From assembly GCA_028716165.1 (NCBI GenBank), contig JAQUQI010000001.1:126538-190537 (forward strand): a DNA stretch of 64,000 nt, given 5' to 3'. Made by a program: the position numbers and the translations under genes. This document shows, piece after piece, positions 17,337-64,000 of the stretch. This DNA is from Candidatus Omnitrophota bacterium (GTDB lineage Bacteria > Omnitrophota > Gorgyraeia > JABMRG01). The notes beneath the pieces are model-generated. The model ran no database searches, was not told the DNA's origin, and worked only from the letters and a program-made list of their open reading frames with translations. The stretch's first letter is position 1, and every line of letters starts with the position of its first letter.

Positions 17337-17897
17337 TTACTCACTCTTCTCTGCCTGATTTTTCTCAAGCATCTCAATGCGGCCTTGAATATCCTCAAGC
17401 TGTTTTTTTAAGAAATCAGCTTCACCTTTTAGGATATCCGCCTCCTGCTTAGGTTTCATTTCAGGCGCATAAGGATACGTCCCGCCAAAAGCAGGAAATC
17501 CCATAGATGCTCTCTGCCAGCCGGAAAGACCGGTTGTGTAAAACCAATTTCTCCGGCCTCTGCCGCCGCCTCGGCCAAAAAACCCTCTGCCCATGCCAAC
17601 ATAACCTCCGCCGGACACAGGATTCATATAACCGGCCATAGGATAACCCGCACAGAGACCAGCCCCTCTTCCTGTCATCGGTCCTAATCCCATAGGTCCA
17701 GTTCCATCTCCTCTAGGCATAACAAACACCCCCTTTCTTAAACTACTTTTGGATTCTTTATCACCAGAATCTATTTTAGCTACGCAAAAACCCATTCCCC
17801 TGCCGGTAAACGACCCTGCTCCCCTGGGTCCTGTCCCATCAAATCCTGGCATAATCATCACCCCCCCCCCATTAATGGAATTGATAATCATTCTCAT
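17337..17897 (-). CDS. DUF5320-family protein (two Gly-rich MPG(F/R)DGTGP modules plus a C-terminal coiled coil)
   Basis: It has MPGFDGTGPRGAGSFTGRGMG and MPRGDGTGPMGLGPMTGRGAGLCAGY, followed by LKGEADFLKKQLEDIQGRIEMLEK. The real start is probably ATG 17850-17852 or 17856-17858, just downstream of a G10 tract. Confidence 0.7.
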   Translation of the reverse strand: MRMIINSINGGGVMIMPGFDGTGPRGAGSFTGRGMGFCVAKIDSGDKESKSSLRKGVFVMPRGDGTGPMGLGPMTGRGAGLCAGYPMAGYMNPVSGGGYVGMGRGFFGRGGGRGRRNWFYTTGLSGWQRASMGFPAFGGTYPYAPEMKPKQEADILKGEADFLKKQLEDIQGRIEMLEKNQAEKSE

Positions 17898-19947: not shown

Positions 19948-21279
19948 TTAGGTTTCGGCTATACCTTCTTCAGCCAAAAGCCATTTCCAGAGAGGCATGG
20001 TCTTCACGGTAAAGCCGTTCAGTTTCTCTTCGCCTTCCGCGTCCTCGGTGATGATTACCGCTTTATCAGTTTCCAATTCTTTCATCGCCTTCTGAAGGCT
20101 CCGCAGTTCACGTTTTTTTGTTTTCTCGTCTCGCATGTTCCAGCAAACCTGAATCAAACCCGTTACATTCAATCCGTCTTTGATAACAAAATCAACCTCA
20201 TGATGCTGAACGTCTTTCCAGTAAAATAATTCAACGCGCGGATTAACGATTTGTTTTCGTTTAAGAGCCATGAAAACAATATTTTCCGCTAACCGCCCGA
20301 TATTATCAGAAAACCTAAATCCTACTGAATTACATAATCCTGTATCAATCGCGTAAATCTTACGGGGACTTTTTTGTTGCTCCTTCACCTTGAACGAAAA
20401 CCTCTTAAGTTGAAATATAAGATAAACATCCTCAAGATAACTTGAAAATTTATCAATTGTATCCGACGTTATGTCAAGATGTTTTGCAATCGAAGTAAAA
20501 GTCATAAGATTTCCGGCATTGCTCAGATAATACTTGATTAACGCCTTCATTGCCTTGGTCTTCCTAACACGGAATCTTTTTATTAGATCCTTCGATACAA
20601 GGTCATCAAAATAATTCAATAAAACCTCTGTTTTTTTATCTGACAAGCTAACCTCAGGAAAAGATCCGTTCTCCATATATTTTCGGAAATGCCCCATTAT
20701 TTCAGTTTTTTTTCTGTCTACGTCAAGCGGTGCTTTAATTTCTATATTGTAAAACATTAAGTATTCTGTAAACGAAAGAGGAAAAACACAAAGATCGATA
20801 TGTCTCCCTGTTAATAATGTTCCAAGTTCACGGCTAAGCAAATGAGCGTTTGATCCAGATACAATGATTTTAGCTTTTTTAAGCTCATGCATCATACGCA
20901 CCCATTTTTCCCATTCATCGATTTCCTGAATCTCATCAAGAAAAATATACGGCGTATCAGTAGGAGACATGAACTCTCGATAAACGTCATATATTTGAAT
21001 CAATAATTTATTATCGAGCGTTAAGAATCTGGGATCGTCAAAATTGATAAAAAGTATGTTTTCCTTTTTTACGCCCTTATCCGCCAGAAGCCTTCCCATT
21101 TGGCGCATGATATATGACTTTCCTGCCCGCCTGGGACCGGTTATAGTTATTACTTGATTGGATCCTTTAATAAGCCCTTCCAATCTATCAATATAGGAAT
21201 TTCGCATAAGCCCTATATCTTTTTGACCAGCCCACTCATTCCAACTATCTAATATGTCGAATACCTCTTTTTTCTCCAT
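19948..21279 (-). CDS. AAA-superfamily ATPase with DUF4143 C-terminal domain (COG1373)
   Basis: It has the Walker A GPRRAGKS, a Walker B ILFINFDD/FLDEIQE and the usual C-terminal nuclease-like region. Length is 443 aa. Confidence 0.85.
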   Translation of the reverse strand: MEKKEVFDILDSWNEWAGQKDIGLMRNSYIDRLEGLIKGSNQVITITGPRRAGKSYIMRQMGRLLADKGVKKENILFINFDDPRFLTLDNKLLIQIYDVYREFMSPTDTPYIFLDEIQEIDEWEKWVRMMHELKKAKIIVSGSNAHLLSRELGTLLTGRHIDLCVFPLSFTEYLMFYNIEIKAPLDVDRKKTEIMGHFRKYMENGSFPEVSLSDKKTEVLLNYFDDLVSKDLIKRFRVRKTKAMKALIKYYLSNAGNLMTFTSIAKHLDITSDTIDKFSSYLEDVYLIFQLKRFSFKVKEQQKSPRKIYAIDTGLCNSVGFRFSDNIGRLAENIVFMALKRKQIVNPRVELFYWKDVQHHEVDFVIKDGLNVTGLIQVCWNMRDEKTKKRELRSLQKAMKELETDKAVIITEDAEGEEKLNGFTVKTMPLWKWLLAEEGIAET

Positions 21280-55189: not shown

Positions 55190-56545
55190 AGTGTCAAGAT
55201 AATTGTGCACTTTCGTATTTAAGTTCAGATTGAATTAAGTCTTTAGACATATCCTCTAGTATTGTTATGTTAAGGTGCTTTATGATACCAAAGATCCATA
55301 AGTTTAAAGAGTGTTCGTTTTTAAAGTAACCCTGTATCCTATTTCTTCTTCGTATCTCTTCTATAAAGCGCTCTAAGTGGTTTGAGGTGCTTATTAAGTT
55401 TCTGTCCGCTTTCGGGAAGTCATAATAGTTCAAAATATTGATAAAGTTGTTTTGAAAGTTCTTGCAAGCCCTCGGTTCTTTATCCTGCCAGTTATATAAA
55501 AACCTGTTAAACCGGTTAATTGCCCTTTGTTTAGAAGGCTGCTGGTATATAGTCTTGGCCTGTTTTAGCATTTTAGCTCTGTGTTTACATTTATGCCTTA
55601 TATTTTGTAATAAGTTGCGTAATTTATGAGTATAGCAGTATTGCCTTTTGGCATAAGGATATACAGTATTAACAGCCTGGGTTATTGACTCAGAGCCATC
55701 TGCTATTATGCAATCTAAGCATTCCAGGCCACGTCTGTATAGATCATTTAAAAGTGACGTATATTCTGCCTTTGTTTCGCCTTGGGCCAGCTTAAAGCTT
55801 AAGAGCTCTTTCTTGTTGTCTTTGGTAACGCCTAAGGCAAAAAGAACAGGCCTTTGTCTTATGCTAAGCTCTTGTATATGCACCCACATGCCGTCAAGTA
55901 TAAGGTACTTGTAGTTATTAGCTATTGGCCTTTGCCTGTAGCATCTTAGCTCTTCTTTTAAGGCGTATAACAGGTTAGAAGCTGTGGCATGGCTTACAGA
56001 GTCTCCCATAACATGATAGAAGAGCTTTGACTGCTTACGCGTTGATAAGCCTAATATCACTGATAATGCTATGCAGTAATCCAGCCCCTTATGACGTCTT
56101 TGGTATGTGTCAAAGAGCTTGTATCTTAGCTTTGCATGCCTTGCCCGGGGTATTTTAACAGTTGCAGCACCGAATGTTGATGTAAATACCCTGTCATAAT
56201 AACCACATCTTACGTCTATCCTTGTATGCGTTCTCTGGTAAAGCTCTGCTTTAATAGCCTCCTGGAACTCTCTGTTAATGCTGTTTTGCATAACGCGCTG
56301 TATTATTAATCTTATATCAACTTCTAGTGAGTCTTGGGTAATAATACCTAAATCTGAAAGATTTCGCTTTACATATTGCCATTGTCTTGCGACCGTATCC
56401 TGGGAGAGGTCTAAGTCTCTCATGGGCATATCCTCCCTGGGACATCACGTCCCGGTTATTGTCGCTAATAACCAAAGGATATGCCTTTTTTATTGTGATT
56501 TCAATGAACTTTTATACTGAAAGTGCACAGAATATTTTACATTAT
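55190..56545. mobile_element. IS256-family insertion sequence (about 1.36 kb) with imperfect terminal inverted repeats
   Basis: The IR core TGTGCACTTTC at 55205-55215 matches its reverse complement GAAAGTGCACA at 56519-56529. Flanking bases are also similar (...ATAATTGTGCACTTTCGTATTTAAGTTC vs ...ATATTCTGTGCACTTTCAGTATAAAAGTTC). The repeats enclose a single transposase ORF. Confidence 0.7.
55194..56429 (-). CDS. IS256-family (mutator-type) transposase
   Basis: It is 411 aa with DDE-region motifs (LILDGMWVHI, IIADGSESITQAVNTVYPYAKRQYCYTHKLRNL, ISTSNHLERFIEEIRRR). Confidence 0.85.
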   Translation of the reverse strand: MPMRDLDLSQDTVARQWQYVKRNLSDLGIITQDSLEVDIRLIIQRVMQNSINREFQEAIKAELYQRTHTRIDVRCGYYDRVFTSTFGAATVKIPRARHAKLRYKLFDTYQRRHKGLDYCIALSVILGLSTRKQSKLFYHVMGDSVSHATASNLLYALKEELRCYRQRPIANNYKYLILDGMWVHIQELSIRQRPVLFALGVTKDNKKELLSFKLAQGETKAEYTSLLNDLYRRGLECLDCIIADGSESITQAVNTVYPYAKRQYCYTHKLRNLLQNIRHKCKHRAKMLKQAKTIYQQPSKQRAINRFNRFLYNWQDKEPRACKNFQNNFINILNYYDFPKADRNLISTSNHLERFIEEIRRRNRIQGYFKNEHSLNLWIFGIIKHLNITILEDMSKDLIQSELKYESAQLS

Positions 56546-56616
56546 GTTGAGGAAAAAACGTTTTTTTAATATGATCGTTTTACTGGGGGTATGAGGTATG
56601 CGAACAGACTATATAA

Positions 56617-59600
56617 TTACGCGGCTTTTTGCATTGCGCTGTTTCTATTTTTAAGGTTTCTAAGATTTGCAGGATTAATTCTGCTGCTTTTTATATCAAC
56701 AGCAGGCGCTGTGACCGTGGTTTCTTGTGGAGTCATCAACGTGTCAGGCGTAATGCTTCTCTGGGCATTAGCAGATGATAATAATCTCATAACAGCTTTT
56801 TCAAGAATCAGGCTTGAGCGCTGCTTTTGCTGCAGCCTCTGCAAAACAGGAAGTGCCCTTATATCTTCTATTCTGCCTAATACTTCAGCAAGGCCTTCCA
56901 TCTGGCTGAGACTGTTGGTCTTTTCTATTGTATCTAGCAAAACAGGGACTACTGCTTTCCCTTTTTCGGTTAGCTTCTGTATGGCTTTTTGCCTTTCGAC
57001 TAAAGCAAAGTTATTTTCCCTGGTTTGTTTTTTCTGCATTATATCAATATATGCATAAGAGCTCCATGGCCCCGCAGCTTCAGGCGCTTTTAATTCTTTT
57101 CGCAGGATTGAAGATAATTCTACTGACAGCCTTGATAAATCCTCAACCCAAACACCATTAGGATAAACCTTTCCCACTTGTTTAGCCTCCGGACCAATGC
57201 CTATACCAAATATTTTTATTCCTTTGGCTTCGCTAAATAATTTTTCTAATTCTTGCCTTTCCTGTGTTTCAGGCCTATCGGGATTACCATCTGTAATTAC
57301 TATAAGCATATCTTTATCGGTTCTTTTAAGGTGTTTCATTCTCTCAACTGCCTTGGCAATACAACCAGCATCAAAACGTGTATCTATACCTACGTTAGCT
57401 TCAATACCTTTAACCGTTTCAACTGCCTTCTTTCTTGTAACTCTCTCACCCAGCTTTTTAAATGGCAGATAGGGTGTGCGGTCATTAAAAATAGCGATTT
57501 CAAAATCAATGCCCGGGATGTCTTTTAATGCTTCCATCAAAAGAACGGTCCCTTCAATCGCTCTTTTGTATCTATTGGATTCGCGCTTCATACTATAACT
57601 TCCATCGATTAAAAGAACTATTCTATAATTAAATTTACCTATCTTAAGATTGCGTTGGAATATCCTGTCCGTGCCAGAAGGGATTTCTACTAAAGCATTG
57701 GGATCAATATCGCCAAAGGAACGGCTTGTTTGCATTCTATCTCTGGCTGTTTTTTGCAACACCATCAAAAGGTGCCTTCTTAAAACCAGAATAAACGGTT
57801 TAACAGCCCTAAGGTATACTTCATATTCTGCATTTTCGGCTCCTGTTACACCACCTCTTGAGATTTTTTCTCCTTCTAAAATAGCTTTTGCTTTTTCGCT
57901 TCTCTCTCCCAGGGTTTCTTTTGAGCCATCTGATTCGTCCGCAGCTTCAGCCAAAGCTTCCTTTAGTTGTTTGGCTCCTTTTTCGAATTGTTTGCTATAA
58001 GATTTCTCTTGAACAGTAAGATCTTCTTCGGGAAGCGTAGGGTTAGGAACCATTTTACCTTTAAATTCTTCATTGAATTTCTTTTCAGCCTCTTGCGTTT
58101 GGTCAACTGCAAGATTAGCTAACTCTTGCAGTTCTTCAGGTGTCATTTCTTCTAATTCTTTTTTTATTTTTTCTTGCAATTGCTCTTTTAGATCTTCTGG
58201 TATCTGATCCATAGGTAATGGTTTTCCGTTTTTATCAAGCACCTTATCTCCTAATTGTCCTTTTCCTGCCATCTTCTGCATCATATGATTGTTAATAGCA
58301 TTATCTTTTACTTCTTCGATTAGTTTTTCATATACGGGCCAGATTCTATCGCGGATTATTTCATAGCTTTCTCTAGAGCTCTCTGTAGAATAAGCAGCAA
58401 CAATATCTGGTTCGCATTGCTTAAGGGCGTCGATTACCCGCTGATTGGAAATCCTTGGATCATCTTCCCCCTTAAACCATTTATATATCAATCCATAACC
58501 AAATTGTAGATGCAGCGGAAGAGATTGAAATGCAGGCCTTTCTTCTTCTAAATTCTTAGTGTCATATCTTTCACCATATAACTTTTTAATCCATGGTCCT
58601 GCACCTCGATATCTTTTTATGCCAATATTATTTACACGCGAGTCTTCTATAGGATTAAGCAATGTAAAAAAGGAGCGATTTTGCCTGAATTCTTCATCCA
58701 TAACATCAGGATCGCTAAAGATTACATGCCATACTTCGTGCATGGTAATGGCTGAAGGTATATCTGCGTCTTTGTGCTCTAAGTCCTCAGGGAGATATTG
58801 AATCTGGTTTAATCCAAAAAGATAGCGCCAAGTCCTCATTGTATCATCTGGGGCCATTTGCTGCCAAGGAAGCATTTTTAATACTGGATTACTAGTAATA
58901 ATTCTAGCAAGGCCTTCCAGTAGTTGCAAAAGTTGTCGTGAAACATTAGAAGATTTATTAGAAGATTGTGAACTTGTTGGGTTTACCATATTAAACGGAA
59001 TGATTTTATTTTGATGCACTATAGGCGGAAATATAAAATTAGCTGTCGGTTTTTCGGGAGAAGATTTTTTACCTGTCAGTCCATACACCTCTAGTACCTT
59101 ATCAACCATTCCTTGGGCATTATCATTGATATATTCTAAGTTATAGGCTTTCTTAACTATAATTGCAATATCATCTTCTGGATAAATATTAAGGTGTCTA
59201 GCAATTCTTACTAAAGCTCTAGTAGAAAGCGGCCGGGGTAAAAGCCCATTTTTATAGGCAGTACGCAAATCAGTAGCAACTCTAATTAATTCCTTAAGCC
59301 GTGATACTTTTACTTTAGGCGCATATTTTTTTAAGACTATTATTTCTTCCTGTTCGGGTAAATACTCAATAGTATGCATACTAAATCTATCTTCTAATTC
59401 CCCTGATAATAGATTACCTATATAAGGGGGCCTGGGCGGGTTCATGGTAGCAAAAACTCTAAAATCTGGGTGAGCAGTAACTACCTCGCCATTTGGCAGG
59501 GTTACTTGTCTAAACTGGAGTATGTTGTTGAGGCTGGATAACACTCCTGGCTGAACCCTATCTATTTCATCTAAAATAATATAGGTGCCATTTCTCATTG

Positions 59601-62600
59601 CTTCAACCAAGACCGAGTCTGACCAGTTGGTCTTACCTTCCTCTTTTTCTCCAAAAGTCTGCCTGACTAAAAGGTCTTTTACGTCCGTATCTTCATTTAA
59701 TGACATAACCTTACACTCACGATTTAGGAGTTTGGCTAGATACAATACCAGAGAGCTTTTACCTGTGCCTGTTTCACCGACCAAAAGTGTGTTTTCACCT
59801 AAGATAACATCTTTGAGGAGTTCTTTGAGATATGAAAGGTTGGTAAGGGTGTGCTCTAATTCTATTTGCGGTACATACAAACCATCTTGCCCTCTAATCA
59901 TTTCCACATTTCCTATAGTTAAGTAGTCTTTCTGTTGATGATTAACTGTTTTAACCTTTACCTCGATACTAAGCTGCTGTGTAATCGGGTCATGGCCAGC
60001 TTCTAGGGCGCGGTTTCTCAAATCTTCTCCGGTTTGAGCATCTATTAGCCGCTGGTCTTTTGCGATATTCCAAACTTTAGCTACATCATCAAAGCCCCCT
60101 GAAACTATTTTTTCTTCATTTGGTGCAAAAGAAACCGAAGCTGCGGTACCTGAATGCGCCTGTAATGTTTTGGCTTTATTATGGACTATATCCCATATTT
60201 TAACTATTCCTTGTTCATCACCAGAAGCAATATATCCCGTATTAGACATTGACACAGACCAAACAGAACTGGTGTGGCCTCTTAATGTCTTTACTCGATT
60301 AGTTCTCAAATCCCATACTTTAACTGTTTTATCCATGCTCCCTGAAATAAGCATGTTCCCATCCCCTGAAAAAGCCAACGGCCCAACTGCGCCACTATGC
60401 CCACTTAATATCTGAACTCTATTGGTTCTTAAATTCCAAACTCTAATGACACTATCCCAACCCCCTGACGCAACAACTTCACCATTAGACGAAATAGCTG
60501 TTCCTTCTAACTCTTTTTCGTGACCGCTTAAAATCCGCACTCTACACGTGCTTAAATTCCAAACCCTAACTGTTTTGTCTCTGCTTCCAGTAACTAAAAA
60601 ATTTCCATTTTGAGAAAAACCAATTGTGCCAAGTATACTGTCTGTATGGCCTTTTAATACTTTGAATGTTCTATTTTCTAAATCCCATACTTTTAAACTG
60701 CCGCTAGGTCCTGCTGAAGCTATATATCTGTTATCAGGTGAAATAGCTATTGCCCAAATTTCAGTACCTTGATCCCCTAACGTATTGATTTCGTTTGTTT
60801 CTAAATTCCATAATTTTAATTTGCTATCTTTGCTTCCAGAAACAATCAAACCACCATCAGACAAATAAGCAACTGACATAACATCGTTGCTATGACCCTG
60901 AAGAATTTTTTCAATTTCAGTAACTGATATTCTTTCATCAGAAACAATTCTATCGGAGGAATTAACTTGTGGAGTAAAATTTGTTTCTTCTGCGTCATAG
61001 TTCTTTTCTTCTGGTGAAAAAGCCGATTCCTCTGGCGTAAAACCTATTTCTTCAGGTGCAAAATCCTGCCAAGGAGCTAAATTAAGCGGCAAGTTAGAAT
61101 CATGCTGAGCGGATTGAAGCACCGGCATAGTGGTTGTTTTGGTCTTTGCAAATTTATAAGGCTGTAATGCCTTTTCTACAGATGCTTGAGCGTCTATATT
61201 CAGGTATTCCAGATTGTAGGCCTTTTTAATAATAGCCATTACGTCATCGTGTGGGTATACTTCTAAATGCTTAGCTACTCTCACTAAGGCACGCGTAGAT
61301 AATGGCCTGGGTAAAAATCCCTGCTTATAAGAAAATCTTAAATTGTTAGCAGCATCAACCAATTCTTCCAGGACAAACTTGTCAACACCTGGTGCGTGAT
61401 TTTGCAAAACTGCAATTTCCTCTTCTTTGGGGAGATAGTCAATAGAGTAAATTGAAAATCTATCTTCTAATTCACCTGATAATAAATTCCCTGTATAAGG
61501 TGGTCTGGGAGGATTCATAGTGGCAAAAACTCTAAAATCTACATGAGCATCTACTACTTCTCCATTAGGCAATACGACTTGGCGGAATTGTAAAATATTA
61601 TTCAATACTGAAAGAACTCCTGGCTGAACCCTGTCTATTTCATCTAAAATAACATAATCTCCATTTCTCATGGCATCAACCAATACTGAGTCCGACCAGC
61701 CTGTTTTACCTTCCTCTTTTTCTCCAAAAGTTTGCCTTACAAGCAGATCTTTTATGTCTGTGTCTTCGTTCAAAGACATAACACGGCAACTACGATTTAA
61801 CAATCTAGCCAGATAGAGAACTAAAGAACTCTTTCCAGTGCCTGTTTCTCCTACCAGTAAGACATTTTCATTAAGAATAACATCCCTTAAAATATCTCTT
61901 AAATGGTTGATATTTGTATTTGTCTGTTCCAAGTCTATGCTTGGAACAAAGGATCCATCCTGGCCACGGTCATATGTTAGATCATCAATAACTAAAAATT
62001 CTTTATCTTGATTATCTATGGTTTTTTCAATAAAACGAATTCTCTGGGAAATTGTTTTTAATGAACTATATAATTCTAAAAGTTCTCTAACAGCTATTTC
62101 TTCTGTTCTTATAGTATGCATATGTTCTTCTGCGGATTGAAGCTCTGACTCTAATTTATCAATAGCGCCTCTTAAAGTATCCTTCACAATCTGAGCACCC
62201 TCGTGCTCTGCCTCAACATAGCTCAATCTTAACTCATTGAGAAAAGATGTCTTTTCACCTTTAATCTTTTCTGCTTTTTGTTTTTTTACTCCGCAATGTT
62301 CTAATTTTTTTTCGGCTATCTTTTCTGCCTCTTCTATAGTATCCTGATGGCCTATTTCTTCATATAATTGCTTTGCTGCTACTGATTGGGCGCTAATTAT
62401 ATTTTCTGCGCGTGTTGATAATTCGGCTTTTGTTTTTACCTCCACTTTCTTGGTTAATCCATACACCTCTAAAACTTTTTCCACTATTAGCTGCGCATCT
62501 GCATTAAGATATTCTAAATTATAAGCTTTCCTAATTGGAACATTAATATTTTCTTTAGCATACATGGCTAGATGTCGTACAATTTTCACTAACGCACGCG

Positions 62601-64000
62601 TAGATAATGGCCTGGGTAAAATTCCCTGCTTATAAGAAGCCCTTAAGTCGCTTGCTACATTAACTAATGATTCTAAAATTGCTTTATTGACATTTGGTGC
62701 ATAATATTGCAGCACAGCTATCTCTTCATCTTTAGATAAGTACTCAATAGTATGCATACTAAATCTATCTTCTAATTCCCCTGATAATAGATTACCTATA
62801 TAAGGGGGCCTGGGCGGGTTCATGGTAGCAAAAACTCTAAAATCTGGGTGAGCAGTAACTACCTCGCCATTTGGCAGGGTTACTTGTCTAAACTGGAGTA
62901 TGTTGTTGAGGCTGGATAACACTCCTGGCTGAACCCTATCTATTTCATCTAAAATAATATAGGTGCCATTTCTCATTGCTTCAACCAAGACCGAGTCTGA
63001 CCAGTTGGTCTTACCTTCCTCTTTTTCTCCAAAAGTCTGCCTGACTAAAAGGTCTTTTACGTCCGTATCTTCATTTAATGACATAACCTTACACTCACGA
63101 TTTAGGAGTTTGGCTAGATACAATACCAGAGAGCTTTTACCTGTGCCTGTTTCACCGACCAAAAGTGTGTTTTCACCTAAGATAACATCTTTGAGGAGTT
63201 CTTTGAGATGAAGTCTATTTGTAGGAGTTAAAGGTAAATTTATGTTAGGAACAGAGATATCCCCTCTACCTCTTTCAAATTCTAAATCATCTAACTTAAG
63301 ATACTCTATGCCATTTTTATTTTGAATTGATAGATCTTTATCTCTTGGCAATGCAGATTTTTCTAAGCCTAAGGCAGAAGAACTATCGCCTGCTTGCCAA
63401 ATTATAGCAAATTTATCCAGCCATCCTTGATCTACTGGAAAAATTGAAGGTGGGGCATATCGCGAATCAACTTGGCTTAAAGAAACAATATATTCTTTCT
63501 TATCTTTTCCTTGTATCAAAAGATGCAACAAATCACCAAATTTCTCTATAGTAATAGGCATCGATTTAATAGAAAAGAATTGATATCTATTCCTATATGC
63601 TTCTTTAAGTTGTGTAAAATTAGAAATTAAGCCGCTTAACCAGACCTCTCTGTAATCATAAAGCTCTGCATATGCCTTGACCCCTCTAATCACCCTATCA
63701 AAGATTTCTTTTGCTTCTTGTTCTGTCTTTACTGGAAATTCTTTGGAAACCGCGAGACCTTGTGCTGCTTCCCATGGCACTTGAATTGCATCAACTATTA
63801 AGATGGGCGCAGGATCTTTACCCTGCTGTTTTTTTATTGCAGAAATAACGTAAGCGTTCCCAATCCATGTATCTCCTTTCATAATCTTAAAGTTCAAGAA
63901 CGCAGGATCTAATATATGCCTGGGAGTAGTGTATTTAAATTTAGGGGACTTTGGATTGGTAGAGTCACCACTAATATTGCCTCTGCTTAAATCTTCTTTG
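56617..64000 (-). CDS. giant multidomain protein (>2,460 aa, N-terminus beyond the window): 3x MoxR-like AAA_5 ATPase, 7-blade WD40, HExxH metallopeptidase-like plus VWA/MIDAS (DUF2201-like), C-terminal HEAT-like repeats
   Basis: The ORF is open from 56617 to the window edge, and the track's start at 63897 is a TTG with an open frame upstream. It has three Walker-A LLVGETGTGKSSLVLYLA modules at about 63.2, 61.85 and 59.78 kb, each followed by DEIDRVQPGVLS and ATMNPP. Seven WD40 blades lie at about 60.13-60.90 kb. The HEVWH motif is at about 58.74 kb, and MIDAS LLIDGSYSM...ITDG at about 57.2-57.64 kb. The C-terminus has HEAT/PBS-like repeats. Confidence 0.8.
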   Translation of the reverse strand, partial: KEDLSRGNISGDSTNPKSPKFKYTTPRHILDPAFLNFKIMKGDTWIGNAYVISAIKKQQGKDPAPILIVDAIQVPWEAAQGLAVSKEFPVKTEQEAKEIFDRVIRGVKAYAELYDYREVWLSGLISNFTQLKEAYRNRYQFFSIKSMPITIEKFGDLLHLLIQGKDKKEYIVSLSQVDSRYAPPSIFPVDQGWLDKFAIIWQAGDSSSALGLEKSALPRDKDLSIQNKNGIEYLKLDDLEFERGRGDISVPNINLPLTPTNRLHLKELLKDVILGENTLLVGETGTGKSSLVLYLAKLLNRECKVMSLNEDTDVKDLLVRQTFGEKEEGKTNWSDSVLVEAMRNGTYIILDEIDRVQPGVLSSLNNILQFRQVTLPNGEVVTAHPDFRVFATMNPPRPPYIGNLLSGELEDRFSMHTIEYLSKDEEIAVLQYYAPNVNKAILESLVNVASDLRASYKQGILPRPLSTRALVKIVRHLAMYAKENINVPIRKAYNLEYLNADAQLIVEKVLEVYGLTKKVEVKTKAELSTRAENIISAQSVAAKQLYEEIGHQDTIEEAEKIAEKKLEHCGVKKQKAEKIKGEKTSFLNELRLSYVEAEHEGAQIVKDTLRGAIDKLESELQSAEEHMHTIRTEEIAVRELLELYSSLKTISQRIRFIEKTIDNQDKEFLVIDDLTYDRGQDGSFVPSIDLEQTNTNINHLRDILRDVILNENVLLVGETGTGKSSLVLYLARLLNRSCRVMSLNEDTDIKDLLVRQTFGEKEEGKTGWSDSVLVDAMRNGDYVILDEIDRVQPGVLSVLNNILQFRQVVLPNGEVVDAHVDFRVFATMNPPRPPYTGNLLSGELEDRFSIYSIDYLPKEEEIAVLQNHAPGVDKFVLEELVDAANNLRFSYKQGFLPRPLSTRALVRVAKHLEVYPHDDVMAIIKKAYNLEYLNIDAQASVEKALQPYKFAKTKTTTMPVLQSAQHDSNLPLNLAPWQDFAPEEIGFTPEESAFSPEEKNYDAEETNFTPQVNSSDRIVSDERISVTEIEKILQGHSNDVMSVAYLSDGGLIVSGSKDSKLKLWNLETNEINTLGDQGTEIWAIAISPDNRYIASAGPSGSLKVWDLENRTFKVLKGHTDSILGTIGFSQNGNFLVTGSRDKTVRVWNLSTCRVRILSGHEKELEGTAISSNGEVVASGGWDSVIRVWNLRTNRVQILSGHSGAVGPLAFSGDGNMLISGSMDKTVKVWDLRTNRVKTLRGHTSSVWSVSMSNTGYIASGDEQGIVKIWDIVHNKAKTLQAHSGTAASVSFAPNEEKIVSGGFDDVAKVWNIAKDQRLIDAQTGEDLRNRALEAGHDPITQQLSIEVKVKTVNHQQKDYLTIGNVEMIRGQDGLYVPQIELEHTLTNLSYLKELLKDVILGENTLLVGETGTGKSSLVLYLAKLLNRECKVMSLNEDTDVKDLLVRQTFGEKEEGKTNWSDSVLVEAMRNGTYIILDEIDRVQPGVLSSLNNILQFRQVTLPNGEVVTAHPDFRVFATMNPPRPPYIGNLLSGELEDRFSMHTIEYLPEQEEIIVLKKYAPKVKVSRLKELIRVATDLRTAYKNGLLPRPLSTRALVRIARHLNIYPEDDIAIIVKKAYNLEYINDNAQGMVDKVLEVYGLTGKKSSPEKPTANFIFPPIVHQNKIIPFNMVNPTSSQSSNKSSNVSRQLLQLLEGLARIITSNPVLKMLPWQQMAPDDTMRTWRYLFGLNQIQYLPEDLEHKDADIPSAITMHEVWHVIFSDPDVMDEEFRQNRSFFTLLNPIEDSRVNNIGIKRYRGAGPWIKKLYGERYDTKNLEEERPAFQSLPLHLQFGYGLIYKWFKGEDDPRISNQRVIDALKQCEPDIVAAYSTESSRESYEIIRDRIWPVYEKLIEEVKDNAINNHMMQKMAGKGQLGDKVLDKNGKPLPMDQIPEDLKEQLQEKIKKELEEMTPEELQELANLAVDQTQEAEKKFNEEFKGKMVPNPTLPEEDLTVQEKSYSKQFEKGAKQLKEALAEAADESDGSKETLGERSEKAKAILEGEKISRGGVTGAENAEYEVYLRAVKPFILVLRRHLLMVLQKTARDRMQTSRSFGDIDPNALVEIPSGTDRIFQRNLKIGKFNYRIVLLIDGSYSMKRESNRYKRAIEGTVLLMEALKDIPGIDFEIAIFNDRTPYLPFKKLGERVTRKKAVETVKGIEANVGIDTRFDAGCIAKAVERMKHLKRTDKDMLIVITDGNPDRPETQERQELEKLFSEAKGIKIFGIGIGPEAKQVGKVYPNGVWVEDLSRLSVELSSILRKELKAPEAAGPWSSYAYIDIMQKKQTRENNFALVERQKAIQKLTEKGKAVVPVLLDTIEKTNSLSQMEGLAEVLGRIEDIRALPVLQRLQQKQRSSLILEKAVMRLLSSANAQRSITPDTLMTPQETTVTAPAVDIKSSRINPANLRNLKNRNSAMQKAA
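59363..59831. repeat. 469-bp intragenic direct repeat, copy A (AAA module 3)
   Basis: By eye alignment it matches 62741..63209 base for base. The identical antisense ORF prefixes 59585.. and 62963.. in the track corroborate this. Confidence 0.8.
62741..63209. repeat. 469-bp intragenic direct repeat, copy B (AAA module 1)
   Basis: It is identical to 59363..59831. The middle AAA module (about 61.3-61.9 kb) is similar in protein but diverged in DNA. Confidence 0.8.

What the first reader, a model, noticed from the sequence alone, without database searches (positions are those of the whole stretch)
56617..64000. Giant midasin-like fusion: three MoxR AAA modules + WD40 propeller + HExxH/VWA(MIDAS) + HEAT in one >2,460-aa bacterial ORF
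MoxR/CbbQ/NorQ-type AAA_5 ATPases normally act as separate small proteins. They pair with a separate VWA/MIDAS protein (CbbO, NorD, DUF2201/CoxE-like), and sometimes a third component, as a chaperone, metal-insertion or conflict system. Here a single uninterrupted reading frame fuses these parts in order:
- three complete AAA_5 modules, each with Walker A GETGTGKSS, Walker B DEIDRV and ATMNPP;
- a 7-bladed WD40 propeller inserted between modules 2 and 3;
- a DUF2201_N-like HExxH (HEVWH) putative metallopeptidase region;
- a VWA domain with an intact MIDAS (DGSYSM...TDG);
- C-terminal HEAT-like repeats.
The reading frame runs past the window edge, so the protein is even larger. This architecture (poly-AAA ring, long linker, MIDAS) matches eukaryotic midasin/Rea1 and dynein-like proteins. 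I do not know of a described bacterial system built this way. It sits in lower-GC DNA directly beside an intact IS256 element, which suggests horizontal acquisition. It could be a self-contained MoxR–VWA 'ternary' machine for substrate remodelling or a conflict system, or a structural giant protein.
Basis: partly seen in the sequence, partly recalled or inferred. Interest (0 to 1): 0.9.

Follow-up and report, generated by a model that had tools for sequence, protein, structure and literature searches.

The report
Giant fused AAA motor–adaptor protein
A real, more than 2,460-residue gene in an uncultured Omnitrophota bacterium joins three copies of a small ATP-driven motor, a WD40 propeller and the motor's usual partner protein into one chain. 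It belongs to a little-noticed prokaryotic family whose largest members independently copy the six-motor layout of the eukaryotic ribosome-assembly protein midasin.

Summary
One minus-strand frame, 56617 to beyond 63999, encodes:
- three catalytically complete AAA_5 modules;
- a 7-blade WD40 propeller between modules 2 and 3;
- an HExxH domain;
- an acidic linker;
- a VWA domain with an intact MIDAS motif;
- a weak HEAT-like tail.

An intact IS256-family transposase lies 188 bp downstream. GC3 is 0.29, against 0.46±0.05 in neighbouring genes.

The interpretation needs refining. The AAA modules are no closer to midasin than to CbbQ, CobS or GvpN. The C-terminal 615 residues are a CobT/NorD-type adaptor, with an M48-like gluzincin N-domain, a linker, a pre-VWA 'shaft' and the VWA domain. 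DUF2201_N is not supported.

Relatives range from two-gene operons, through fusions carrying one AAA module, to six-module giants in Planctomycetia, Omnitrophota, Thermoproteota and Methanosalsum zhilinae. Module-by-module comparison shows these six-module forms arose independently of midasin.

The three modules here are recent paralogues. Modules 1 and 3 share a 469-bp identical tract with sharp edges.

Most likely it is a self-contained MoxR-type motor–adaptor remodelling machine that dimerises into a six-AAA ring. Its target and biological role are unknown. The N-terminus could not be recovered, and the assembly across the repeat is unverified.

The parts
63229..63999 (-). N-terminal region (visible aa 1-257) of unknown fold, cut by the window edge
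   Evidence: No Pfam hit at E<=1. Residues 2-139 are homologous to internal regions of two giant proteins: P0162 (7,557 aa, residues 1743-1884, E 5.6e-24) and P0278. Coding therefore continues past the window edge.
62425..63228 (-). AAA_5 module 1 (aa 258-525)
   Evidence: Pfam AAA_5. Walker A, Walker B, sensor 1 (ATMN), the Arg finger (EDRF) and sensor 2 (STRAL) are all present. PDB hits are midasin AAA domains, CbbQ, CobS and NorQ.
61930..62424 (-). Charged, coiled-coil-like linker (aa 526-690)
   Evidence: Only weak coiled-coil-type Pfam hits. No PDB sequence relative. D+E 21%, K+R 14%.
61120..61929 (-). AAA_5 module 2 (aa 691-960)
   Evidence: Pfam AAA_5. All catalytic motifs are present. 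Against module 1: 75% amino-acid identity, 70% nucleotide identity, dN/dS about 0.08.
60943..61119 (-). Acidic Pro/Glu-rich linker (aa 961-1019)
   Evidence: D+E 23%, K+R 4%.
60040..60942 (-). Seven-blade WD40 propeller (aa 1020-1320)
   Evidence: Pfam WD40, 7 stretches, E 3.2e-57, plus whole-propeller models. About 123-nt periodic repeats at 60275-60695.
59050..59850 (-). AAA_5 module 3 (aa 1384-1650)
   Evidence: Pfam AAA_5. All catalytic motifs are present. The junction to the next domain is confirmed independently by the metagenome fragment P0130, which is 77% identical and collinear with aa 1452-1859.
62741..63209 (-). 469-bp tract, copy 1, identical to 59363-59831 (inside module 1)
   Evidence: Exact identity with sharp edges. 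Identity falls to 55-78% immediately outside.
59363..59831 (-). 469-bp tract, copy 2 (inside module 3), 3,378 bp (1,126 codons) from copy 1
   Evidence: The spacing is a multiple of 3, so recombination between the two copies would stay in frame.
58252..58929 (-). HExxH gluzincin/M48-like domain (aa 1691-1916), equivalent to the N-domain of CobT
57745..58251 (-). Acidic, helical or disordered linker (aa 1917-2085)
   Evidence: Partly low pLDDT, below 50 for model residues 289-359. D+E 22%. Corresponds to the disordered linker of about 90 residues in CobT.
57628..57744 (-). Candidate 'shaft' segment just before the VWA domain (aa 2086-2124)
   Evidence: Disordered in the model, residues 396-431. 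Same position as the CobT shaft Q373-R413, which inserts into the CobS ring pore. The assignment is an inference.
57094..57627 (-). VWA domain with MIDAS motif (aa 2125-2302; D2132, S2134, S2136, D2237)
   Evidence: Pfam VWA E 1.9e-8. DxSxSM and DG are invariant in the family. The family profile hits CobT in the PDB at E 8e-27, the midasin MIDAS domain at 41 bits and NorD at 26 bits. Top Foldseek hits are Rea1/MDN1 MIDAS (E 3.5e-8), then NorD.
56617..57093 (-). C-terminal tail with weak HEAT-like repeats (aa 2303-2460), plus the stop codon
   Evidence: HEAT_2 E 0.003, 18.2 bits, below the cutoff of 27.7. Similar to the tail of one Planctomycetia hexa-AAA protein, L039.
55194..56429 (-). IS256-family transposase gene, 188 bp downstream of the giant gene
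   Evidence: Transposase_mut E 1e-73, covering profile positions 26-369 of 379, plus MULE. The independent JGI contig L001 (99.96% identical) ends at 56450, as expected at a repeated element. GC 38.5%.

Best explanation
The gene encodes a self-contained MoxR-type motor-adaptor machine. It has three catalytically competent AAA_5 ATPase modules of the CbbQ/NorQ/CobS/GvpN kind, fused in one chain to their usual partner, a CobT/NorD/CbbO-type adaptor. The adaptor consists of an M48-like HExxH domain, an acidic linker, a pre-VWA shaft and a VWA domain with a MIDAS motif. A seven-blade WD40 propeller is inserted as an extra binding platform.

The following steps are inferred by analogy with the CobST, NorQD and CbbQO structures:
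- Two chains pair to close a six-AAA ring.
- The HExxH domain docks on an AAA lid.
- The shaft enters the ring pore.
- ATP hydrolysis pulls or twists the adaptor, so that a target protein held by the MIDAS site, the WD40 propeller or both is remodelled.
- The target may also be cut, if the intact HExxH...E site is catalytic.

The three-module form arose recently, by in-frame tandem duplication and gene conversion inside a laterally acquired gene. The target and the cellular role are unknown.
For: **Shown by tool results.**
- Domain content and order.
- All ATPase motifs are intact in all three modules.
- Strong purifying selection between modules, dN/dS about 0.08.
- The AAA modules match CbbQ, CobS and NorQ in the PDB, and GvpN and CobS in NCBIfam.
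- A profile of the C-terminal module hits CobT (E 8e-27), the midasin MIDAS domain and NorD.
- 8 of 12 family members hit Pfam CobT_C, and one hits the CobT N-domain.
- The best structural matches of the modelled VWA region are Rea1/MDN1 MIDAS and NorD.
- In 61 loci from GTDB species genomes, the same C-module sits either directly downstream of a separate AAA or AAA-AAA gene, or is fused to 1, 2 or 6 AAA modules. Motor and adaptor are therefore a conserved functional pair.
- Module counts in complete genes (1, 2, 6; 3 here) are all divisors of six.
- No transmembrane segment in the visible part.

**Recent origin of the modules.**
- The 469-bp identical tract has sharp edges.
- GC3 is 3.6 sd below that of neighbouring genes.
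- The closest C-module relatives are in Elusimicrobiota (35-37% identity), not in other Omnitrophota (27-28%).
Against: - Ring formation by dimerisation, shaft insertion and target remodelling are all analogies. Nothing here tests oligomeric state.
- The N-terminus is missing, so more modules or an effector domain may lie upstream.
- No target gene is identifiable. The downstream neighbours (the IS, then purF, a TrpB-like gene and others) look unrelated.
- The full-length product is absent from a collection of 5.8 billion protein clusters, although neighbouring proteins from the same NCBI contig are present. The gene may therefore be flagged as a pseudogene in the source record.
Confidence: 0.6

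Rival explanations
1. It is an ATP-dependent protease. The AAA ring unfolds a substrate recruited by the WD40 propeller and the MIDAS site, and feeds it to the HExxH gluzincin domain for cleavage. This would be analogous to FtsH, or to the proposed MoxR-vWA-transglutaminase degradation system.
For: - HExxH plus a downstream Glu are conserved in most homologues.
- The fold matches active M48/M56 peptidases and minigluzincins.
- Zhang & Aravind 2012 proposed that MoxR-vWA-peptidase operons are degradation systems.
Against: - In CobST the homologous N-domain is a docking module on the AAA lid, and the paper describes no catalysis for it.
- About a quarter of homologues have lost one of the His residues.
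- The domain lies outside the ring axis in CobST, so it is not placed as a degradation chamber.
Confidence: 0.2
2. Its biological role is in conflict or defence, as a sensor-effector switch of the MoxR-vWA type. The WD40 propeller would sense an invader molecule, and the AAA-VWA couple would set the activation threshold.
For: - It is foreign in composition and lies next to an IS.
- Its distribution is sporadic and its domain shuffling rapid and lineage-specific.
- Distant stand-alone relatives of the C-module in CPR genomes sit inside diversity-generating retroelement cassettes that show adenine-specific VR/TR differences.
- MoxR-vWA conflict systems are established in comparative genomics.
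Against: - No significant match to any complete defence system in PADLOC, only generic AAA or propeller hits.
- No recognisable toxic effector domain in the visible 2,460 residues.
- The layout differs from all four ternary systems of Kaur et al..
- No relatives among viral contigs.
- No DGR is seen near the closer relatives.
Confidence: 0.25
3. It is a metal-insertion or cofactor-maturation chaperone, like CobST (cobalt chelatase), NorQD (FeB into NO reductase) or CbbQO (Rubisco activase).
For: - Its closest solved relatives are exactly these systems.
- In the Omnitrophota relative L002, the gene lies directly after a NikR-CbiM-CbiQ-CbiO nickel/cobalt uptake cluster.
Against: - Scores for the CobS and CobT equivalog models are far below their cutoffs, and CobT is missed altogether by the giant itself.
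- No CobN-sized gene, nor or cbb genes in the 56 kb downstream.
- The WD40 insertion and the variable module number are unknown in those systems.
- The neighbourhood is not conserved across loci.
Confidence: 0.12
4. The three-module ORF is an assembly artefact or a dead gene. The 469-bp identical tract may have been traversed twice in the assembly graph, or the copies collapsed. The true gene would then have one module, or the locus would be several genes.
For: - An exact repeat longer than a short read lies inside one gene of a metagenome-assembled genome.
- The full-length protein is absent from NCBI-derived protein sets, while its neighbours are present.
- Only 56450-58772 is confirmed by an independent contig.
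Against: - The frame stays open for 7.4 kb in 38% GC DNA.
- The unique segments between the repeats (linker, module 2, WD40) are in the same frame, have the same unusual GC3 and are under purifying selection.
- With two repeat copies, A-R-B-R-C is the only path that uses every unique segment once (my own reasoning, not a tool result).
- Relatives with alternating AAA-WD40-AAA layouts exist independently (L003, L004, P0159).
- The junction from module 3 to the adaptor is confirmed in a 77%-identical relative.
Confidence: 0.1
5. It is a true bacterial orthologue of eukaryotic midasin/Rea1.
For: - The domain order is poly-AAA_5, then an acidic linker, then a C-terminal MIDAS domain.
- Midasins are the next-best full-length hits.
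- Midasin MIDAS domains are the top structural hits.
Against: - Per-domain scores to Rea1 equal those to CbbQ.
- All three modules are recent paralogues, and all of them best match midasin AAA3 and AAA5, so there is no positional correspondence.
- Midasin lacks the HExxH CobT-like domain and the WD40 propeller.
- The high full-length scores arise from summing repeated modules.
Confidence: 0.03

Closest known systems
CobS-CobT motor-adaptor of the aerobic cobaltochelatase (cryo-EM, bioRxiv 10.64898/2026.07.21.739949)
   Same: - The motor is an AAA_5 module with the same catalytic motifs.
- The adaptor has the same parts in the same order: an M48-like N-domain, a disordered linker, a segment before the VWA domain, and a VWA domain with a DxSxS MIDAS motif.
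- It is the best sequence-profile match in the PDB, E 8e-27.
   Different: - Here motor and adaptor are one polypeptide with three motor copies and a WD40 propeller.
- HExxH is retained.
- There is no CobN.
- Scores are far below the CobS and CobT equivalog cutoffs.
NorQ-NorD and CbbQ-CbbO (MoxR-type remodelling pairs)
   Same: - An AAA_5 hexameric motor with a single VWA/MIDAS adaptor that engages the ring and a client.
- Both appear among the sequence and structure hits.
   Different: - They are separate small proteins, with no propeller and no HExxH domain reported.
- Their clients (NO reductase, Rubisco) are absent from this neighbourhood.
Midasin/Rea1/MDN1
   Same: - Concatenated AAA_5 modules, an acidic linker and a C-terminal MIDAS domain in one giant chain.
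- Its MIDAS domain is the top structural match.
   Different: - Midasin has six diverged modules with fixed positions. This protein has three near-identical, recently duplicated modules and no positional correspondence.
- Midasin has no WD40 propeller or M48-like domain and works in eukaryotic ribosome biogenesis.
Prokaryotic hexa-AAA_5-CobT-like giants: Methanosalsum zhilinae WP_013897510.1 (3,261 aa), Thermoproteota MFC1753351.1 (4,005 aa), and Planctomycetia and Omnitrophota loci L038-L050
   Same: - They belong to the same family, with AAA_5 modules followed by the same HExxH-VWA module.
- The Methanosalsum protein also carries an inserted WD40 region.
   Different: - They have six modules instead of three.
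- Their modules are old and diverged. The PVC forms are orthologous module by module, and the Methanosalsum protein is a two-module unit repeated three times.
- They are annotated only as 'AAA family ATPase', and I found no literature on them.
Beta-propeller-containing MoxR-vWA ternary conflict systems (Kaur, Burroughs, Iyer & Aravind 2020, PMC7159879)
   Same: It combines a MoxR-clade ATPase, a vWA domain and a beta-propeller, with sporadic distribution in PVC and other bacteria.
   Different: - In those systems the components are separate genes.
[quoted passage not shown]
- A third variable protein with TPR and a propeller is present.
- None of this matches here.

Membership tests
AAA_5 / MoxR-clade AAA+ ATPases (CbbQ/NorQ/CobS/GvpN group) | Pfam AAA_5 match above the curated cutoff | tested here: met
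   E 1.4e-90, 301 bits against a cutoff of 22, three stretches.
AAA_5 / MoxR-clade AAA+ ATPases (CbbQ/NorQ/CobS/GvpN group) | Walker A, Walker B, sensor 1 Asn, Arg finger and sensor 2 Arg in each module | tested here: met
   GETGTGKS, ILDEIDR, ATMN, EDRF and STRAL are present in all three modules. The motif roles were assigned by comparison with CobS.
AAA_5 / MoxR-clade AAA+ ATPases (CbbQ/NorQ/CobS/GvpN group) | Assembly into a hexameric ring | not testable with these tools
   No multimer prediction or experiment was available. Module counts of 1, 2, 3 and 6 in the family are only suggestive.
Cobaltochelatase CobS/CobT (equivalogs TIGR01650 / TIGR01651) | Score above the NCBIfam equivalog cutoffs | tested here: not met
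   CobS scores 46-48 bits against a cutoff of 558. The giant's C-module does not hit CobT at all. Stand-alone relatives reach 21-37 bits against a cutoff of 759.
Cobaltochelatase CobS/CobT (equivalogs TIGR01650 / TIGR01651) | A partner CobN catalytic subunit nearby | tested here: not met
   Apart from the giant, no ORF longer than 830 aa occurs in the 56 kb downstream. Upstream lies outside the window.
CobT/NorD/CbbO-type VWA adaptors (broad sense) | C-terminal VWA domain with a DxSxS...D MIDAS motif | tested here: met
   VWA E 1.9e-8. D2132, S2134, S2136 and D2237 are invariant in the family. Profile against CobT E 8e-27, and NorD is also hit.
CobT/NorD/CbbO-type VWA adaptors (broad sense) | N-terminal M48-like helical domain with a 3-stranded sheet, then a disordered linker | tested here: met
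CobT/NorD/CbbO-type VWA adaptors (broad sense) | Genetic coupling to an AAA_5 motor | tested here: met
   The module is fused here. In related loci an AAA or AAA-AAA gene lies immediately upstream of the adaptor gene.
Midasin/Rea1 | Six tandem AAA modules with position-specific identity (AAA1-AAA6) | tested here: not met
   Three modules are visible. All of them best match midasin AAA3 and AAA5, with no diagonal in the score table. A true midasin (P0013) does give a clean diagonal in the same test.
Midasin/Rea1 | C-terminal MIDAS domain preceded by an acidic region | tested here: met
   Top Foldseek hits are Rea1/MDN1 MIDAS domains. The linker has 22% D+E.
Midasin/Rea1 | Binds the UBL domains of Ytm1/Rsa4 in pre-60S particles | not testable with these tools
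   This is a eukaryote-specific function, and I did not look for bacterial counterparts.
Beta-propeller MoxR-vWA ternary system (Kaur et al. 2020) | [quoted passage not shown] | tested here: not met
   Here a seven-blade WD40 propeller lies between AAA modules, N-terminal to the VWA domain, all in one chain. No third component is seen downstream.
DUF2201_N (PF13203) putative metallopeptidase | Pfam match above the gathering score | tested here: not met
   E 1.9, 8.5 bits against a cutoff of 23.2. Only 2 of 12 family members match, at E >= 1.2.
HEAT repeats | Pfam HEAT_2 match above the gathering score | tested here: not met
   18.2 bits against 27.7. The repeat pattern is visible by eye, but only about two units.
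IS256 family insertion sequence (the neighbour) | Full-length Transposase_mut (DDE) gene | tested here: met
   E 1e-73, profile positions 26-369 of 379. Terminal inverted repeats were not clearly resolved.

The most novel reading that the evidence does not exclude
This protein may show a single-chain AAA+ ring being built. On this reading, a motor-adaptor pair that is normally two genes fused, and the motor then multiplied by in-frame recombination between modules; the 469-bp identical tract would be the trace of that. The family would then form a natural series of 1, 2, 3 and 6 AAA modules per chain, each ending in a built-in MIDAS adaptor. The midasin-like six-module layout appears to have arisen at least three times independently in prokaryotes: in PVC bacteria, in Methanosalsum as a two-module unit repeated three times, and in the AAA-WD40 repeat proteins. 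The most far-reaching version is that eukaryotic midasin, and through it dynein, descends from such a prokaryotic concatenated AAA_5-MIDAS protein, rather than from a fusion that happened after eukaryotes arose.
Probability: 0.15. Interest if true: 0.9.

Novelty: new variant of a known kind. Interest (0 to 1): 0.66.

Why it matters
MoxR-type AAA+ motors and their VWA adaptors are very widespread, and they are among the least understood chaperone-like systems. Structures of CobST and NorQD appeared only in 2026.

A version in which motor, adaptor and a WD40 binding platform sit on one chain fixes their stoichiometry and geometry, which makes it an attractive object for structural and biochemical study.

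[quoted passage not shown] This family shows the same layout, including the terminal MIDAS domain, arising repeatedly in bacteria and archaea. The window's gene appears to be a recent intermediate with three modules. The question of how concatenated AAA+ rings evolve could therefore be studied with living examples.

Tried and rejected
**Recovering the N-terminus failed by every route.**
- The genome-contig scan with the whole protein found nothing.
- An exact 30-mer from the window edge had no match in metagenome contigs.
- A protein scan with the N-terminal 257 aa in metagenome contigs found nothing.
- Looking up the neighbouring gene in the contig index failed.

**Searches that were unproductive or mis-set.**
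- Word-indexed homology searches with the C-terminal part, and with a family profile, returned almost nothing (1 and 4 hits). The cause is probably the low-complexity linker. The exhaustive HMMER search was what opened up the family.
- One PDB search was mis-targeted at the lid and linker region (aa 434-700) and returned nothing.
A 5-sequence alignment worked.
- The viral contig scan found no relatives.

**Assignments tested and rejected.**
- PADLOC gave only generic AAA and propeller hits.
- DUF2201_N and HEAT_2 fall below their thresholds.
- Midasin orthology was rejected by the module-by-module score tables.
- The Kaur et al. beta-propeller ternary system was rejected on layout.

**Left unresolved.**
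- The IS terminal inverted repeats were not resolved.
- Literature searches found no description of prokaryotic poly-AAA_5-MIDAS proteins. However, Iyer et al. 2004 and Garbarino & Gibbons 2002 were not readable. The part of Cavalier-Smith & Chao 2020 that mentions midasin lies beyond the text the library holds.


Full report
**1. What is in the sequence**

On the minus strand, one reading frame runs from the window edge (63999) to a stop at 56617-56619 with no interruption, giving 2,460 codons. The ORF lister reports it from a TTG at 63897, but the frame is open up to the edge.

The first ATG (63881) has no Shine-Dalgarno-like sequence upstream (read). The visible N-terminal region is homologous from its residue 2 onward to an internal part of a 7,557-residue metagenomic protein (P0162 residues 1743-1884, E 5.6e-24). 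All attempts to recover the missing part failed.

**2. Domains**

- Pfam finds three AAA_5 domains (E 1.4e-90) and seven WD40 repeats (E 3.2e-57), together with whole-propeller models.
- It also finds a VWA domain (E 1.9e-8).
- HEAT_2 is below threshold (18 bits against 27.7), and nothing matches the first 257 residues or the HEVWH region.
- Each AAA module carries Walker A (GETGTGKS), Walker B (ILDEIDR), sensor 1 (ATMN), the arginine finger (EDRF) and sensor 2 (STRAL). All three are predicted to be active.
- No transmembrane segment is present.

**3. The repeat and the age of the modules**

Modules 1 and 3 share a 469-bp stretch of identical DNA (62741-63209 and 59363-59831), spaced 3,378 bp apart, which is exactly 1,126 codons. 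Identity falls abruptly to 55-78% at both edges.

Module 2 is 75% identical to module 1 in protein but only 70% in DNA, with synonymous sites near saturation and dN/dS about 0.08. The modules are therefore paralogues kept under strong selection, and modules 1 and 3 have recently exchanged sequence. An assembly graph traversing one node twice could produce the same pattern, and I could not exclude that.

Several points argue for a real three-module gene:
- the unique segments between the repeats stay in frame;
- they share the gene's unusual codon composition;
- the only path that uses every unique segment once is the assembled one (my own reasoning).

Independent support covers only part of the gene. 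A JGI contig that is 99.96% identical spans 56450-58772. A 77%-identical fragment from a related organism is collinear with aa 1452-1859, and so spans the junction from module 3 to the next domain.

**4. Source and setting**

Neighbouring proteins are identical to MDD5503835 through MDD5503862 of a Candidatus Omnitrophota metagenome-assembled genome, on a 301-kb contig.

The giant protein itself is absent from the 5.8-billion-cluster protein collection, apart from the fragment above. It may therefore be unannotated or marked as a pseudogene in the source record. I could not check this.

An intact IS256-family transposase gene lies 188 bp downstream (Transposase_mut E 1e-73), and the JGI contig stops at its edge.

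The giant gene's GC3 is 0.293 throughout. The other 32 genes in the window average 0.461 (sd 0.047, minimum 0.374). This supports acquisition from elsewhere.

**5. What the parts are related to**

A single AAA module scores 70.6 and 68.3 bits against AAA3 and AAA5 of yeast Rea1, 68 bits against CbbQ, 54 against CobS and 44 against NorQ. NCBIfam places it nearest to GvpN and CobS, far below their cutoffs. It is a generic member of the AAA_5 group and not specifically midasin-like. The high full-length scores to midasins come from summing repeated modules.

An exhaustive HMMER search with the last 770 residues found 1,084 representative clusters. Many of them are stand-alone proteins of 600-700 residues carrying Pfam CobT_C. 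A profile of twelve family members hits the solved cobaltochelatase adaptor CobT at E 8e-27, then the midasin MIDAS domain and NorD.

In this family, HExxH is conserved in about three quarters of members, together with a Glu 27 residues downstream in an 'EDPRVNN' motif. DxSxSM and a later DG are invariant.

- An AlphaFold model of the whole module (pLDDT 75.5) shows a helical N-domain, a disordered acidic linker, a disordered segment directly before the first VWA strand, and a VWA fold.
- The best structural matches of the VWA part are Rea1/MDN1 MIDAS domains, followed by NorD.
- The N-domain modelled alone is confident (pLDDT 92.7, pTM 0.84).

This agrees with the recent CobST cryo-EM preprint. 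That paper describes CobT as an M48C-like N-domain (a helix, a three-stranded sheet and eight helices) that docks on the CobS lid. It is followed by a linker of about 90 residues, a 'shaft' that enters the CobS ring pore upon nucleotide binding, and a VWA domain with a MIDAS motif.

**6. The family**

Domain mapping covered the representative hits and 61 loci from GTDB species genomes, mostly Elusimicrobiota, Omnitrophota, Planctomycetota, CPR bacteria and DPANN archaea. It shows a series of layouts:
- **Two-gene operons:** a gene with one or two AAA modules sits directly upstream of the adaptor gene.
- **Single fusions:** AAA-adaptor and AAA-WD40-adaptor.
- **AAA-WD40 repeat proteins:** one has at least six AAA modules (L003), and another has at least two AAA and two WD40 units (L004).
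- **Six-module giants:** six AAA modules followed by the adaptor, in Planctomycetia (L038, L039, L042, L048), Omnitrophota (L044, L047, L050) and a Thermoproteota archaeon (MFC1753351.1). Methanosalsum zhilinae DSM 4017 has WP_013897510.1 (3,261 aa), with three AAA, a WD40 region, three AAA and the adaptor.

These proteins are annotated only as 'AAA family ATPase'.

Module-by-module score tables show:
- The Planctomycetia and Omnitrophota six-module proteins are orthologous position by position.
- The Methanosalsum protein is a two-module unit repeated three times.
- None of them shows positional correspondence with midasin, whereas a genuine midasin in the same test gives a clean diagonal.

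Concatenated AAA_5 rings with a terminal MIDAS adaptor have thus arisen several times in prokaryotes, independently of midasin as far as this test can see.

In genes that are complete, the module counts are 1, 2 and 6. The three modules here complete the set of divisors of six, which fits a closed six-AAA ring. For this protein that would mean a dimer.

The giant's adaptor module is closest to Elusimicrobiota sequences (35-37% identity) rather than to other Omnitrophota (27-28%).

**7. How it most likely works**

*Shown:* it is a fusion of a MoxR-type motor with its cognate adaptor and a WD40 propeller. All catalytic and MIDAS residues are intact and under selection.

*Inferred from CobST, NorQD and CbbQO (NorQD abstract):*
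- The AAA modules close into a six-membered ring.
- The HExxH domain sits on a lid.
- The pre-VWA segment enters the pore.
- ATP hydrolysis moves the adaptor, so that a protein held at the MIDAS site, the propeller or both is remodelled.
- Whether the HExxH site cuts the target is open.

The biological role is unknown. Three readings remain possible:
- **Conflict or defence.** Foreign composition and the neighbouring IS point this way. So do the rapid domain shuffling and the diversity-generating retroelement cassettes next to distant relatives in CPR genomes.
- **Metal or cofactor maturation.** The nearest solved relatives do this, and one relative lies beside a NikR-CbiMQO cluster.
- **Regulated proteolysis.**

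None of these is established.

**8. Comparison with what is known, and novelty**

It is not a cobaltochelatase, because the equivalog scores fail and there is no CobN. It is not midasin. It is not one of the four MoxR-vWA ternary systems of Kaur et al. [quoted passage not shown]

In the searchable literature I found no description of prokaryotic poly-AAA_5-MIDAS proteins. Reviews and structural papers treat dynein and midasin as the proteins with six AAA+ domains in one chain, and place that fusion early in eukaryotic evolution. Key older papers were not readable, so prior mention cannot be excluded.

I rate the gene a new variant of a known kind. The parts and their partnership are known. What is new is the fused, multi-module, WD40-bearing form and the family series it belongs to.

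**9. Verdict**

The finding is of above-average interest for two reasons. First, it is a real and unusual molecular machine. Second, it leads to an overlooked prokaryotic family that mirrors midasin's design and includes what looks like a recent intermediate in the concatenation of AAA+ modules.

The main weaknesses are the missing N-terminus, the unverified assembly across the repeat, and the unknown client and role.

Noticed in passing
L036 9806-16600; also L045, L057, L060 (and L026, L040, L059): In CPR/Patescibacteria genomes, the stand-alone HExxH-VWA (CobT-like) gene is followed by a conserved ORF of about 149 aa and then an ORF of about 700 aa. The 3' end of that second ORF carries a 120-nt repeat, with a second copy 390-590 nt downstream. 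The two copies differ almost only where the second copy has A (9/10, 15/15, 10/10 and 13/14 mismatches). Avd-like and reverse-transcriptase-like ORFs follow. This is a diversity-generating retroelement cassette linked to distant relatives of the adaptor module.
   Followed up: partly
L038, L039, L042, L048 (Planctomycetia); L044, L047, L050 (Omnitrophota); P0234 (Thermoproteota); P0159 (Methanosalsum zhilinae WP_013897510.1): Prokaryotic proteins of 3,200 to more than 6,500 residues carry six tandem AAA_5 modules followed by the HExxH-VWA/MIDAS module, which is the midasin layout. The PVC forms are orthologous module by module. The archaeal Methanosalsum protein is a two-module unit repeated three times. 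None corresponds positionally to midasin. They are annotated only as 'AAA family ATPase'.
   Followed up: partly
window 56617-63999, compared with protein databases: The full-length product is missing from the 5.8-billion-cluster protein collection, while neighbouring proteins of the same NCBI contig (MDD5503835 to MDD5503862) are present. The gene may be unannotated or flagged as a pseudogene in the source record.
   Followed up: partly
L003 17760-17850: The closest large relative is P0001, from an ENA contig labelled 2.90x coverage. It consists of alternating AAA-WD40 units and changes frame near 17803. It then continues for at least two more AAA modules to the contig end. This is probably one gene of more than 3,650 aa broken by a sequencing error. 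Its N-terminus has a hydrophobic, signal-peptide-like segment.
   Followed up: partly
L002 693-3773: In the Omnitrophota relative with one AAA module (P0002, GCA_015231715.1), the gene lies just downstream of a NikR, CbiM, CbiQ and ABC-ATPase cluster for nickel/cobalt uptake. This could be a coincidence or a hint of a metal-related role.
   Followed up: no
L006, L021, L031, L033, L035, L049: A Ser/Thr-protein-kinase-like ORF recurs near the AAA-AAA plus adaptor operons in six loci from different phyla.
   Followed up: no
window 63229-63999; P0162 residues 1743-1884; P0278 residues 1555-1689: The N-terminal region of unknown fold reappears as an internal segment of two proteins of about 7,500 residues that also carry six AAA modules and the adaptor. 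It is a mobile module of unknown function. The giant gene could therefore extend far upstream.
   Followed up: partly
window 56450: An independent JGI metagenome contig (sample 3300037067, 2,323 bp, one mismatch) ends exactly at the edge of the IS256-like element. This is consistent with the IS being multi-copy in that population.
   Followed up: no
window 1-24000 compared with 24000-55000: GC content is not uniform across the window: 40-43% in the first 24 kb and 44-48% from 24 to 55 kb. The gene at 19948-21279 is also low, with GC3 0.378.
   Followed up: no
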